A DNA stretch of 62,619 bases, filler included, from Collodictyon triciliatum (lineage: Eukaryota), in the NCBI GenBank assembly GCA_043381765.1. It is 8 parts of 8 records of this genome, joined end to end, with 100 filler letters (N's around TTAATTAATTAA, not from the genome) between each part and the next. Parts side by side here need not be neighbours in the genome. Positions count along the whole stretch, not along the records: positions 9,518 to 18,933 come from JBHJMP010003023.1; positions 19,034 to 28,443 come from JBHJMP010003024.1; 6 more parts are not named here. One strand, given 5' to 3'. Below are positions 9,883 through 26,494 of the stretch, piece by piece. The position numbers and the translations under genes were made by a program. Under the pieces are notes generated by a model, which searched no databases, was not told where the DNA came from, and saw only the letters and a list, made by a program, of their open reading frames with translations. How positions within the stretch are numbered: the first letter of the stretch is position 1; every line of letters begins with the position of its first letter.

Positions 9883-12800
9883 ATGAGTCGCAAAACACCG
9901 ATTAAGCTCAAGGATGAACTTTCGCTACTGTTAACCTCATCAGCGGGGCATAGGAAGGTCGGTTCAATTCCTTCGTATTTATTAATGAGTTATTAATGAG
10001 TTTTTTCTTTTTTTTTTTTTTTAGTTTTTTTTTTATGAGGGTTTTGATGGGGTATTAATGGATGTTTAATGAATCACTTTTTTTTTTTTGTATTTTGTAG
10101 ACCTCCTTTGTTCAATAGTGTTTAAAGACTATCCCTTCATGTTAGCAATCAACACCAAATGAGCATTCTTTACGCATGGAGTATTTGCGACCAACGCCAA
10201 CGAGAAGCAACATCGGCCCGGAAAATGATTTCAGAAATATACTTGATGCTTTAAATGCATTTGAGGAGAAAGCAACTCCAGTGAAAAAGAGCGCAAAAAA
10301 ATCGTCAGTTCAATCGACTGTATTCCGGGCATGGCAGATAAAGTATAACATAATACTCTTCCAATTTTCCAGCATACGCAACACTTGTTTATTTCGTATG
10401 ATTCTTTAACCATTAGATTATGTTTATATTTTAAATGTTTAGTCATTCCATTTAATGTCCATTTTTATCACTTTCGAAAACGGTCCAAATAAATCCGAGT
10501 TATTCCTTCTTTACATATCTATTTCATTAAGAAAAAATTAAGCATCTATACCGTGGAAAATGTTGATTTATATTTACATATTGCATTCATACTATTATCT
10601 AATGATTACTTTATATTGGAAAAGAACTGCCGAGAATAAAGCTCTCAGAGAACACGCCTTACGGACATGGACTCAAGCAATCGTACTTTGGGAGGTTACT
10701 TTTCTTTTCTTTTTTCTTCTTTTTACGATCAGAATGCATTAGTCATGATTTTGTATTCAAGAGAAATATATCCACATGAGCGTGAAAAATAGTAATAATA
10801 ACAATAATAATAATATAAACCATTTCAGATACATGCAAAGAAAAGAGTCATGAGACGTTTAAAATTAATTTTGAAAGACTCTCTGCGAAAAAAGGTAATG
10901 CTTCTTAAATACCTTATTTGCTTTGATGCTGCTACAGATTTCTTAATATAATTTAGTTTAATTAAGAAGCGTGAAATGTACTCACATCATAAATACATTT
11001 CATCACATACAGTCGCATTCGGATTCGTTTGGTCGAGTTCGCCTGCTGAAAAAATATATGGAGATTTGGATGAAAACAACAAAGTTGAACACAAAAGAAA
11101 AGATAAAAATATATCGCGCTGTTACTTTTTGGGGACAAAACATGATGAGGAAGCATTTCTGTAACTTTTAATTATTCATTTACACTCTTTGATACTCAAA
11201 ATGCACGAGACTTAAACGCATAACCTTCTGAAAATATTTATTTTTCTATAATTTAAATTTCTGATTTTATAACTATCGCTCATTAACAAGACACGTGGTT
11301 CCGTATTGCTCTTACAAAAAAAGAGAAAGTATGAAATATCCTTTTATTGTATTGAACAAACCAATAAATTCTTAAAAATTTCAACTTCTGATACTCAAAA
11401 AAAGCTTCTACTGTGACACTTTTAATAATTAAATAAAATAGAGAATCAAATATGTAACTGCCTCGTCAATGTACCTTAGTCATTTGATTTCTAAATCATT
11501 CAAGGTACTTTTTTGCCTTTTCTATTTGTAAAATACATACTATAATACTTATTGTTCTTGAATAAGAAGATTAAAAACATATTGAATTCGTTTTTGTGCT
11601 CGTGCAAGATTTGGTTACACTACAATAGCTCACAGAAAGTGAAAAGAAGCAGAAACCAAGCGGCTTTCGAATTCTACGTTAAGAAAATCTTGTCTCAATC
11701 GCTTAACAAATGGATCATATCCTCCCCTTTCTTTTCCTTTTTTTTTCTTTTGCCAGGACGGTCTGGCCATATTGCTGCTTTTTTTTCTTTACTTCCTCAT
11801 TTTCATACAAATATTCTGATTATAATTTGAATTCGCTCACTACAAAATTCTTTAACATAATTACGGATATACTCAACAACAATATTTAAAAAACCATGCG
11901 AAACAAGTTTCCTCGTACCATTATTCGATGAGAATCACAAAGACAACTTTCAAAGCATGGCTTTGGTTCAAGGCGTCTAAATCTAGAGAAAACAGTAAGT
12001 CTGTTGATTATATTTCCTTCTCCCTTATTGTCATCACTTGGAATAATATCTACATCGCGGAGCAATTTTAATATACAACCCTTTATTCTGCTTACTTTTA
12101 TATATCATATAGAAATAGTGCAATATTACCGAAAAAGGATGTTCTTTCTCTGTGCGAAGGCATTATTTAAAGAATGGAAGGGAAAAGCATTAGAATTGAG
12201 GGCTGTCAAATCCAATGAGGTCAGATAATGTTATTAAATCCACATATAATAATGGTGTTAAGACTAAACCCAATCCTTATGAAAACACAGAGGACAGCTG
12301 TTCTGCATTATGTCCGCTTTAGATTGCGGCAAGCTTTAAGAAACTGGATTTACTTTCTGAACCACAAAAACCACGAAAGAAGAAAGGCTGTAATCGCAGT
12401 ATCATTTTGGGCAAATAACAAACTTGTTTTTTATTTCGGTAATTATAATCATTGTATTGTTATTCGATCTTTTAACAAGACTGATAATGTGTTTCAATAT
12501 TCTTAAATTGCTTGAAATAAAGATTATTGGACCAAATGGACTCGTGAAAAACTAAGGAAGGTGCATATTAATCAAACTTTAATGTATCGCTTTAACGTCT
12601 ATACCTCTTGTTGTGAATATTTAACGTACCATAAAAATATTGTGTGCAGGAGAGATCACTCACCATTGCTGCTCGTCAATATGAAAGAGTTCTGAAAAGA
12701 AAATACGTCATGGTAACATTATTTCTCGTAGAGGTGTAGAATGTTCTTGTCACCATAAAATTTCCAAGCAACTCACAATCCACGGTTTTGAATAGGGATG

Positions 12801-25100: not shown

Positions 25101-26494
25101 TTAATTATCAAAATATTGAATACATTTCAAATATTTTGCATACATTCCCATCGTGAGAATTGATTGATGCGTATCGGGCTGTTCCGCGAAAACCAGTCGA
25201 TTCTCTTGGGTGATAATAGTTAAACGAAAAATTTTGGAAAACGCGTAATAGTAGAATGGAAGGTTTTAGAAAATAAAGAGCAAAAAAATTTTTTTGGTTT
25301 GTTTTGCCATAGTGTAATATTTTTTTCGGTAATTTAAAGAAACATGATTTGGATATAGGTCTTATTGATCCATCAGGAGAAAGAAAGCGCCGAGATAAGC
25401 CGAAATCCAGGATGTAACACTTGTCTTTGTTTTGACCAATACCCATGGCTAAATTCGACTAGGGATAATATAAGGAAAAAGGAAAATATGGACTGTGTTT
25501 CATCTTCAATCATCTCTGCAATAAATAGCCAGGTAATAAATGTGACATATATATTTCATAACATTTAAATTTATTGGACAAAAAATAGATGAACTTAGAA
25601 AAAAAATGAAAAGTGTTAAGTTGTGTAAAAAAAAAAAAAACTGCACTGGTTTGAAGTCTCGATGCAAGTATCCATTTGTATGCATGTGTTCCAATGCAAC
25701 TAACATTTGTATGCCCAAACGAGCGGTGGTTGCAATTGAGAATCTGTTTTCTGGCTGTTTCTTCTTTATTTCTGACAGATTTTCACCAAGAAGCTCCATT
25801 ACAAGATATGTAAAGTCAGATGTGCGACCACAATAGTAAAATGTACATATATGCTCTGAATCTATATAAAAAAGCCAATTTGAATTTATTGCATGGGATT
25901 TAATCAAAGCGAGGGCCAGAATCGTTGTAATAGTATATTTGATTACTATTTATTAGATTTAATCACGATTTTTTGTATTTTCCTCATAAAGTTAGGGTTC
26001 ATTATTCGCATATAATATGTCGTGTTTTTTTAAAAAAATATATTGAAAGAATACCGAAATGTTTACATGGTAGGGAATACAAGATAAATACAGGTGTATC
26101 CATCATACAAGTGTGTACCTTGCAGTTTCCTCAAAACAGATATCTCTTGCCGGAGAACTTGCTTCTGTGTGGATATCCTCTCGAACTTGATTGCAACAGA
26201 TGTTTGTAAGGTGATGTCCTCTCCCAAAAAAGTCTCTCCTGAAACAAAACGAATTAGAATGGTGCAAGAAAACGAAAGAATATTTAATTAACTAAAGAGG
26301 TCAGCTAGAATTAGGCTCGCATTGCTTCGAAGAGATCATCCTTCATATGAAGCATATATCTTACTTACATGATAAACGTATGGGTTGAGTGAAAAAAGAA
26401 AGGAAAAGGATGGAACAAAATAAGGACCAAATGCTCCTTGCCCGATCTTTTTGACGATGCGCCATCGGCCATTAAGGATGCTTCCACATTGCAT
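22155..26494 (-). CDS. Tau-tubulin kinase / CK1-family Ser/Thr kinase with long C-terminal tail
   Basis: [81 protein letters not shown]. The inferred last exon ends ...LLCEIM*. Start codon and tail exons are less certain. Confidence 0.85.
22872..23120 (+). repeat. Compound (AAAGAAGAA)n/(AAAGAC)n intronic repeat
   Basis: Direct reading; inside a kinase intron. Confidence 0.93.
24360..24452 (+). repeat. (AG)n intronic microsatellite
   Basis: Direct reading. Confidence 0.95.
25210..25356 (-). other. AT-AC (U12-type) intron in the kinase activation segment
   Basis: Minus-strand donor ATATCCAAA; branch-like TTCGTTTAAC ending 9 nt before the 3' end; ends in AC. Removal restores [15 protein letters not shown], matching the TTBK-type RPPR...GFRGT motif. 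Confidence 0.85.

What the first reader, a model, noticed from the sequence alone, without database searches (positions are those of the whole stretch)
11717..25356. Three AT-AC U12-type introns: a working minor spliceosome, possibly with high minor-intron density
Seen: introns 11717-11864 (+), 12904-13020 (+) and 25210-25356 (-) start ATATCC(TCC/TAT/AAA) and end AC. Each carries a TTC(T/C/G)TT(T)AAC/TAC branch-like motif ending only 8, 8 and 9 nt before the 3' end, and each restores frame or a conserved motif. My rough count is about 145 inferred introns in the window, so about 2% are AT-AC, and I found no convincing GTATCC-type U12 intron. Known: U12 consensus is RTATCCTT / TTCCTTRAY. In animals and plants such introns are under about 0.5% of introns and mostly GT-AG; many protists have lost them; Physarum has a large expansion. 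Inference: this lineage keeps U11/U12 splicing, perhaps enriched, AT-AC-biased and with relaxed donor positions +7 to +9. The sample is small (two independent positions).
Basis: partly seen in the sequence, partly recalled or inferred. Interest (0 to 1): 0.72.

Follow-up and report, generated by a model that had tools for sequence, protein, structure and literature searches.

The report
Real minor introns, ordinary density
Three introns in a little-studied protist related to Diphylleia are very probably genuine "minor-spliceosome" (AT-AC) introns and its genome encodes the machinery to remove them, but such introns are about as rare there as in animals and plants.

Summary
The three AT-AC introns exist exactly as described. 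Removing the kinase intron rejoins a TTBK motif to the residue, and a paralog has an AT-AC intron at the same site. The other two sit at the same point of 33-residue Sfi1-type repeats, and removing them restores the 33-residue spacing. The genome holds U11, U12, U4atac and U6atac genes, CENATAC, and probable SNRNP25 and PDCD7. The nearest protein relative is from Diphylleia rotans (CRuMs). No RNA contig crossed an AT-AC junction.

Enrichment is not supported. Outside the window, 4 of 1,652 predicted introns were AT-AC (0.24%; 2% predicts 33), and spiked-in AT-AC introns were recovered 83-100% of the time. Genome-wide motif counts point to a few hundred. AT-AC probably outnumbers GT-AG minor introns, but the controls disagree on how much. 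Donors are mostly ATATCCT; +8 and +9 are loose.

U6atac is the 'CC variant' described in 2008, which cannot pair donor positions +6 to +8. I found no CRuMs minor spliceosome in the papers searched. The scan has already noted U12 introns on other DNA of this genome many times. Verdict: new member of a known kind.

The parts
11717..11864 (+). U12-type AT-AC intron 1 (148 nt, phase 0) in the Sfi1-type repeat gene, after K-W-I; donor ATATCCTCC; branch motif TTCTTTAAC at 11848-11856, branch A at -10
   Evidence: Sequence; posterior 1.0; excision gives W-to-W spacing of 33 aa, which none of 18 in-frame GT/GC-AG alternatives gives. No RNA junction tested.
12904..13020 (+). U12-type AT-AC intron 2 (117 nt, phase 0, in-frame TAG inside), same repeat register (K-W-I) as intron 1; donor ATATCCTAT; branch motif TTCCTTTAC at 13004-13012, branch A at -10
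   Evidence: Sequence; posterior 1.0; excision gives W-to-W spacing of 33 aa, not kept by any of 14 GT/GC-AG alternatives. No RNA junction tested.
25210..25356 (-). U12-type AT-AC intron 3 (147 nt, phase 0, stop-free) in the TTBK-like kinase, between ...SIRP and [10 protein letters not shown]...; donor ATATCCAAA; branch motif TTCGTTTAAC at 25228-25219, branch A at -11
   Evidence: TTBK1 residues 138-172 and 173-194 align to read-through residues 1-34 and 84-105; 8 of 8 homologues lack the 49 aa; paralog on G000:C400 has an ATATCCTTG...AC intron at the same RP^PR site. RNA contigs did not cover this junction.
9883..18700 (+). Multi-exon gene for an Sfi1-type centrin-binding repeat protein (33-aa W repeats); ends approximate, my model splits it at 15218/15758
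   Evidence: Gene model; exon alignment consensus A-x12-F-xx-W fits AX7LLX3F/LX2W and the 33-aa repeat of non-fungal Sfi1 (PMC2063913, passages). No homologue found, so the name rests on the motif.
24461..26494 (-). Kinase-domain exons of a TTBK/CK1-family gene: 26428-26494, 26119-26238, 25647-25861, 25357-25458, 25144-25209, 24906-24998, 24461-24738 (gene continues to about 22200)
   Evidence: Spliced protein aligns to Diphylleia rotans P0001 without gaps in the kinase domain. Run X1 contigs join 24737/24905 and 26237/26427 (two GT-AG introns), and a loose end at 24998 matches exon 25144-25209 in 15 of 16 letters.

Best explanation
These are ordinary U12-type introns of the AT-AC subtype in an intron-rich protist (about 2.4 introns per kb of sampled genome) related to Diphylleia (CRuMs) that keeps a complete minor spliceosome. 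Likely mechanism: the U11 5' end (AAAAAGGG) reads the ATATCC(T) donor. U12 (GUAAGGAA) pairs the TTCC/TTTA/TAC branch motif, with the branch A 10-13 nt from the AC. U4atac delivers U6atac, which is of the CC type and can pair only donor +4/+5, so discrimination at +6 to +8 would rest on U11 and proteins. Shown here: intron sequences, exact protein restoration, snRNA and protein genes, U4atac/U6atac complementarity. Inferred from human and plant biochemistry: the splicing steps themselves. Minor introns are rare, about 0.1-0.4% of introns, and mostly AT-AC. The window reaches 2% by local clustering: two introns share one register of a repeat gene (probably spread with the repeat unit), and the window was picked because it had them.
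For: Exact homology junction and paralog conservation. 33-aa repeat register. U12 72.1 bits, U6atac 75.7, U11 55.3 (all above cut-off), U4atac 47.4 (cut-off 53, E 1.7e-5). U4atac/U6atac cofold -39.3 kcal/mol against shuffles -30.8 +/- 2.4 (lowest of 200: -41.9), with a perfect 10-bp stem that differs from the Rfam consensus on both strands. CENATAC 77 bits, SNRNP25-like Ubiquitin_4 30.5 bits. Genome-wide excess of ATATCC..branch..AC; 8 of 28 pattern loci outside the window are introns at posterior >=0.9, among them VPS11-like, SMC3 and TTBK genes; human SMC3 and VPS11 are listed with minor introns (PMC11347168 supplement). Density: 4 of 1,652 at posterior >=0.5, summed posterior 5.2 against 1.7 +/- 0.9 for 24 decoy donors; spike-in recovery 83-100%.
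Against: No RNA contig spans any AT-AC junction (one search covered only the kinase gene, with a hole there). Intron counts come from my own self-trained gene finder, checked only against two RNA joints and the kinase homology; it misparsed one kinase exon. The sample is 0.9% of the genome, biased to contigs over 3 kb, and includes four contigs chosen for snRNA genes (2 of the 4 candidates lie on one of them, C2237). Scans require ATATCC and a near branch, so off-consensus minor introns are missed. The two genome-wide nulls disagree (22 vs 38; 19 vs 5; 88 vs 50). 3 of 147 against 4 of 1,652 gives p=0.015 before allowing for selection.
Confidence: 0.85

Rival explanations
1. The lineage has an expanded minor-intron set (1-2% or more of introns), in the manner of Physarum.
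For: 3 of 147 in this window; other readers of this genome often flagged U12 introns (unchecked notes). Off-consensus introns would escape my scans.
Against: 2% predicts 33 AT-AC introns in the 672-kb sample; 4 reach posterior 0.5 and 2 reach 0.9, with 83-100% spike-in recovery. 2% would mean about 2,400-3,700 introns genome-wide and at least 120 strict-pattern matches above chance; the excess is 15-31.
Confidence: 0.05
2. The AT-AC introns are real but are removed by the major spliceosome (U2-type AT-AC), and the minor snRNA genes are relics.
For: Major donors here are degenerate. The CC-type U6atac pairs these donors poorly (-0.3 to -3.9 kcal/mol). U4atac is below the Rfam cut-off.
Against: All three donors keep ATATCC, and U12-type branch motifs lie 10-11 nt from the end. 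The four snRNAs keep their pairing sites and covary. CENATAC is present. The same CC box occurs in organisms with described U12 introns (PMC2396436, passages).
Confidence: 0.05
3. Intron 3 is not spliced and encodes a 49-aa insertion in the kinase activation segment; introns 1 and 2 are artefacts of GT-AG parses that I missed.
For: Intron 3 is 3n and stop-free; no RNA joint across it; 18 and 14 in-frame GT/GC-AG alternatives exist for introns 1 and 2.
Against: Excision is exact to the residue against TTBK1 and 8 of 8 homologues. The paralog carries an unrelated 130-nt (non-3n) AT-AC intron at the same site. The alternatives break the 33-aa repeat.
Confidence: 0.05

Closest known systems
Canonical U12-type (minor) introns and spliceosome of animals, plants and Amoebozoa (PMC10639083, section 24 and passages; bioRxiv 10.1101/2020.10.12.336362, first quarter and passages)
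   Same: RTATCCTT-type donor, TTCCTTRAC-type branch near the 3' end, U11/U12/U4atac/U6atac, CENATAC; share of about 0.2-0.3% like human (0.276%); host genes such as SMC3 and VPS11.
   Different: AT-AC appears to dominate (about 26% in human); +8/+9 looser; TTTAC branch variant common; branch A at -10 to -13; U6atac of CC type.
CC-variant U6atac ([GU]CCGA in place of AAGGA) of Trichoplax, cnidarians, Reniera, Acanthamoeba, Physarum, Physcomitrella and oomycetes (PMC2396436, passages)
   Same: Same GCCGA box; single copy with no AAGGA paralog found; cannot pair donor +6 to +8.
   Different: No report for CRuMs found. It adds a lineage near the base of Amorphea.
Blastocystis sp. ST1 minor introns (PMC10639083, section 24)
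   Same: AT-AC enrichment (77%) and many phase-0 introns; here 6 of 12 confident introns are phase 0 (4 of 10 independent positions).
   Different: Blastocystis minor introns average 42 nt; here 105-207 nt. The bias here is estimated, not measured.
Physarum polycephalum minor-intron expansion (10.1101/2020.10.12.336362)
   Same: Branch A 10-12 nt from the 3' end; CC-type U6atac (per PMC2396436).
   Different: Physarum has over 20,000 minor introns, a TTTGA branch and a changed U12; here a few hundred and a canonical U12 GUAAGGAA.

Membership tests
U12-type AT-AC intron | AT...AC termini at a true intron position | tested here: met
   exact protein restoration for all three (homology for intron 3; repeat register and frame for introns 1 and 2).
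U12-type AT-AC intron | Extended donor RTATCCTT | tested here: inconclusive
   ATATCC in 3 of 3; T at +7 in 2 of 3; TT at +7/+8 in 0 of 3. Paralog intron has ATATCCTTG.
U12-type AT-AC intron | U12-complementary branch motif close to the 3' end | tested here: met
   Motifs 8, 8, 9 nt before the end; duplex with this genome's U12 at -4.7 to -7.0 kcal/mol.
U12-type AT-AC intron | Junction seen in RNA | tested here: inconclusive
U12-type AT-AC intron | Splicing depends on U11/U12/U6atac | not testable with these tools
   Needs knock-down or in vitro splicing.
Minor spliceosome | U11, U12, U4atac, U6atac genes able to pair with each other | tested here: met
   U4atac is 5.6 bits below the gathering score but pairs U6atac in the expected two-stem form.
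Minor spliceosome | Minor-specific proteins | tested here: met
   CENATAC (PF14968) 77 and 31 bits; Ubiquitin_4/SNRNP25-like 30.5 bits; PDCD7 C-terminus 22 bits, below cut-off. RNPC3, ZCRB1, SNRNP35 and SNRNP48 were not searched.
Physarum-type expansion | Minor introns far above 0.5% of introns | tested here: not met
   0.24% (0.07-0.62%) in 1,652 predicted introns; genome-wide excess 15-49 matches.
Physarum-type expansion | Changed U12 branch-binding site with coevolved branch motif | tested here: not met
   U12 matches the Rfam consensus over the branch-binding region.
CC-variant U6atac | [GU]CCGA in place of AAGGA, with no AAGGA copy | tested here: met
   GAGCCGAGAGA; one copy. The weak second hit (L003, 25 bits) pairs U4atac no better than shuffles. 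Not checked against raw DNA reads, but the same box is in 62 of 69 metagenome loci from a pattern that excluded the canonical G.
Sfi1 centrin-binding repeat protein (host gene of introns 1 and 2) | AX7LLX3F/LX2W repeats 33 aa apart | tested here: inconclusive
   A, F and W spacing and 33-aa period met; LL poorly kept; no family or homologue hit.

The most novel reading that the evidence does not exclude
This CRuMs lineage runs a minor spliceosome whose CC-type U6atac does not read donor positions +6 to +8. As a result its minor introns are mostly AT-AC and tolerate off-consensus donors, with a hidden class (odd donors, AT-AA ends, distant branches) that consensus scans miss and that could lift the share towards 1%. 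Its place near the base of Amorphea would make the CC type the likely ancestral U6atac, and the textbook AAGGA-donor pairing a derived trait gained more than once.
Probability: 0.25. Interest if true: 0.6.

Novelty: new member of a known kind. Interest (0 to 1): 0.32.

Why it matters
It adds CRuMs, a lineage near the root of Amorphea, to the eukaryotes that encode a full minor spliceosome. I found no such report in the papers searched or in the supplements of two surveys (a third, checked for Diphylleia only). It also answers, for this genome, the enrichment question that earlier notes on single windows left open: the density looks ordinary. The CC-type U6atac bears on a puzzle left open in 2008, namely how U6atac recognises the donor without AAGGA and which form is ancestral. 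An intron-rich genome with several hundred AT-AC introns would let that be tested against donor logos.

Tried and rejected
Plain regex scans: no separation from decoys. First gene-finder runs under-predicted (728-776 introns) and missed AT-rich genes; fixed with GC classes and an intron-based background. A looser U12 model gave 13.5 summed posterior (10.5 without the three) against decoys of 2.6-9.2; the stricter model is the one quoted. Idea that the changed U6atac box was an assembly error or new: rejected, since it recurs in metagenomes and was described in 2008. Idea of two U6atac paralogs: rejected. Idea of a donor class ATATCG/GTATCG matching the CC box: no excess in 214 kb by regex; not searched genome-wide. 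RNA: no RNA holder listed on record; only run X1 (guessed RNA, share 0.15) held part of the kinase gene, X2 and X3 gave nothing useful, and the AT-AC junction fell in a hole, which proves nothing. Homologues of the repeat protein: none by Pfam, Atlas, word search or profile search of 1.84 billion proteins; the queries were short single exons. Same-position test against the human SMC3 minor intron: the junction here maps to human residue 705, phase 1, but no listed paper gave the human boundary (listing only), so it is untested. Introns 1 and 2 share no clear sequence similarity beyond the signals, so any duplication is old. The sample could not be enlarged beyond 734 kb, and the GT-AG candidates were not checked in context.
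Full report
Observation. The three introns are in the sequence as described: 11717-11864 (+), 12904-13020 (+) and 25210-25356 (-). Each starts ATATCC, ends AC, and carries a U12-like branch motif ending 8, 8 and 9 nt before the 3' end. The window is a join of contigs separated by N linkers; the first is G000:C3022, and introns 1 and 2 lie on C3023. 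A regex for donor, branch and AC finds as many decoy as real matches, so the motifs alone prove little and I tested each intron by its protein.

Intron 3. It lies in a TTBK/CK1-family kinase. It is 147 nt and has no stop in frame, so it could in principle be coding. Human TTBK1 residues 138-172 and 173-194 align to residues 1-34 and 84-105 of the read-through ORF, an exact 49-residue excision. The spliced protein aligns without that gap to 8 of 8 homologues. The best one (78% over the query exon) is a Diphylleia rotans transcript protein, which places the organism near the collodictyonids (CRuMs); this rests on one gene. A paralog on C400 has an unrelated 130-nt intron, ATATCCTTG...TTCTTTAAC...AC, at the same RP^PR site. 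Contigs of run X1 (guessed RNA) join two GT-AG introns of this gene exactly as predicted and reach 16 letters into the exon after intron 3, but none crosses the AT-AC junction.

Introns 1 and 2. They interrupt one gene of W-containing repeats, both after K-W-I in phase 0. Excision gives tryptophans 33 residues apart in both cases; none of 18 and 14 in-frame GT/GC-AG alternatives does. The exon consensus fits the Sfi1 repeat AX7LLX3F/LX2W, whose non-fungal period is 33 (PMC2063913, passages). No homologue was found, so 'Sfi1-type' rests on the motif. Zebrafish sfi1 is listed with a minor intron and human SFI1 with a minor-like one (PMC11347168 supplement); I could not compare positions. The shared register suggests that the intron spread with the repeat unit (inference); the intron bodies are no longer alike.

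Machinery. G000 holds U12 (72.1 bits), U6atac (75.7), U11 (55.3) and U4atac (47.4, cut-off 53). U11 begins AAAAAGGG, and U12 keeps the consensus branch-binding site. U4atac and U6atac form the two-stem junction at -39.3 kcal/mol (shuffles -30.8 +/- 2.4, lowest of 200 -41.9). CENATAC scores 77 bits, a SNRNP25-like domain 30.5, and PDCD7 only 22, below cut-off. One eukaryotic SSU rRNA and one weaker, unexamined SSU match were found.

U6atac. Its donor-pairing box reads GAGCCGAGAGA instead of GAAAGGAGAGA. It is single-copy and has an upstream TA-rich box and a T-run terminator. A pattern that excluded the canonical G found 69 metagenome loci, 62 with GAGCC and 5 with CAGCC; this shows the variant is widespread but not how common it is. 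Davila Lopez et al. described this 'CC variant' in 2008 and left its meaning open (PMC2396436, passages); it is the only paper the search found with that term. It pairs the donors here weakly.

Density. I trained a gene finder on 734 kb (window plus 672 kb fetched). It predicts 147 introns in the window, three of them AT-AC at posterior 1.0, and 1,652 outside. Of those, 4 are AT-AC at posterior 0.5 or more and 2 at 0.9 or more; the summed posterior is 5.2, against 1.7 +/- 0.9 (maximum 3.7) for 24 permuted donors. Ends of six natural AT-AC introns spiked into 69-81 predicted introns each were recovered 83-100% of the time. So the share is about 0.24% (95% 0.07-0.62%), where 2% predicts 33. Genome-wide, a strict pattern gives 53 matches against 22 (reversed pattern) or 38 (independence estimate). 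Of the 30 loci examined, 28 lie outside the window; 8 are introns at posterior 0.9 or more (one with another acceptor) and one more at 0.63. A looser pattern gives 167 against 118 by both nulls. If the strict pattern captures 5-15% of AT-AC introns (my assumption, from length quartiles and branch matches), there are about 100-600 among roughly 120,000-185,000 introns, or 0.05-0.5%. Human has 0.276% and Basidiobolus 0.554% (PMC10639083). Limits: the gene finder is my own and misparsed one kinase exon, the sample is not random, and off-consensus minor introns are not counted.

Subtype, donor and phase. GT-AG patterns give 13 against 19 or 5, and 68 against 88 or 50. GT-AG minor introns exist (L126 at posterior 1.0 and L128 at 0.68, of 13 loci), but AT-AC probably dominates; the ratio is not settled. 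T at +7 occurs in 27 of 53 strict matches against 27% background, and in 10 of 12 confident introns; TT at +7/+8 occurs in 5 of 12. So the consensus is canonical with looser +8/+9, and the kinase donor ATATCCAAA is an outlier. Six of 12 are phase 0 (4 of 10 independent positions), too few to interpret.

Comparison and verdict. The introns work like, and by every feature I could test belong to, the U12 AT-AC class; RNA junctions and spliceosome dependence remain untested. They are not a Physarum-type expansion (10.1101/2020.10.12.336362, first quarter and passages). I found no CRuMs minor spliceosome in the library (listings) or in the supplements of two surveys; subscription papers and bioRxiv supplements were not visible and may hold one. 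Earlier notes of this scan report U12 introns elsewhere in this genome and leave density open; they are unchecked leads, not support. Result: a new member of a known kind, with the enrichment claim not supported and a modest evolutionary point in the CC-type U6atac.

Noticed in passing
L002:1501-1616 (G000:C2465:9630-9745): CC-type U6atac; its first 50 nt are identical to U6atac copies on contigs labelled as gut metagenomes (e.g. L138). That those are Blastocystis is a guess, untested.
   Followed up: yes
window:26239-26427 (-): GT-AG intron with the unusual donor GTCCTT, confirmed by an RNA joint in run X1; major donors in this genome are weak beyond GT.
   Followed up: partly
window:26500-26842 (-): A loose end of an X1 contig at 26500 matches the window at 26842, suggesting a spliced upstream exon of the kinase gene.
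   Followed up: partly
window:24276-24462 (-): The X1 contig differs from the genome by a few letters at this exon join and at a few other places; strain or allele difference, not resolved.
   Followed up: no
L118:1501-1639 (G000:C3020), L094:1501-1659 (C398), L097, L100, L096, L091: Further confident AT-AC introns in SMC3, a VPS11-like gene, a WD40 gene, an RRM gene and two unnamed genes; human SMC3 and VPS11 also carry minor introns.
   Followed up: partly
L126 (G000:C2301:6047-6180): Best GT-AG minor-intron candidate (GTATCCACG ... TTCCTTTAC ... AG, posterior 1.0).
   Followed up: partly
window:28646-32997 (+) and 44150-46642 (-): Long stop-free ORFs in an otherwise intron-dense genome: WD40 repeats (342 and 1009 aa) and leucine-rich repeats (830 aa).
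   Followed up: no
window:980-1732 (+), 20391-21294 (+), 59272-59703 (-): MIB_HERC2 domain in a GC-rich (58%) stretch, an NIF/CTD-type phosphatase and a HECT ligase fragment.
   Followed up: no
window:9418-9517 and similar every ~9.4 kb: N-TTAATTAATTAA-N linkers: the window is a concatenation of contigs, so neighbourhood across linkers means nothing.
   Followed up: yes
L090 (G000:C834:42374-43813): Second SSU rRNA match (588 bits, 1,440 nt), probably organellar or bacterial; not examined.
   Followed up: no
G000:C929, C942, C12210; C718, C13546; C1610, C4643: Near-identical pattern matches on different contigs suggest allelic or duplicated contigs, which inflate genome-wide counts somewhat.
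   Followed up: no
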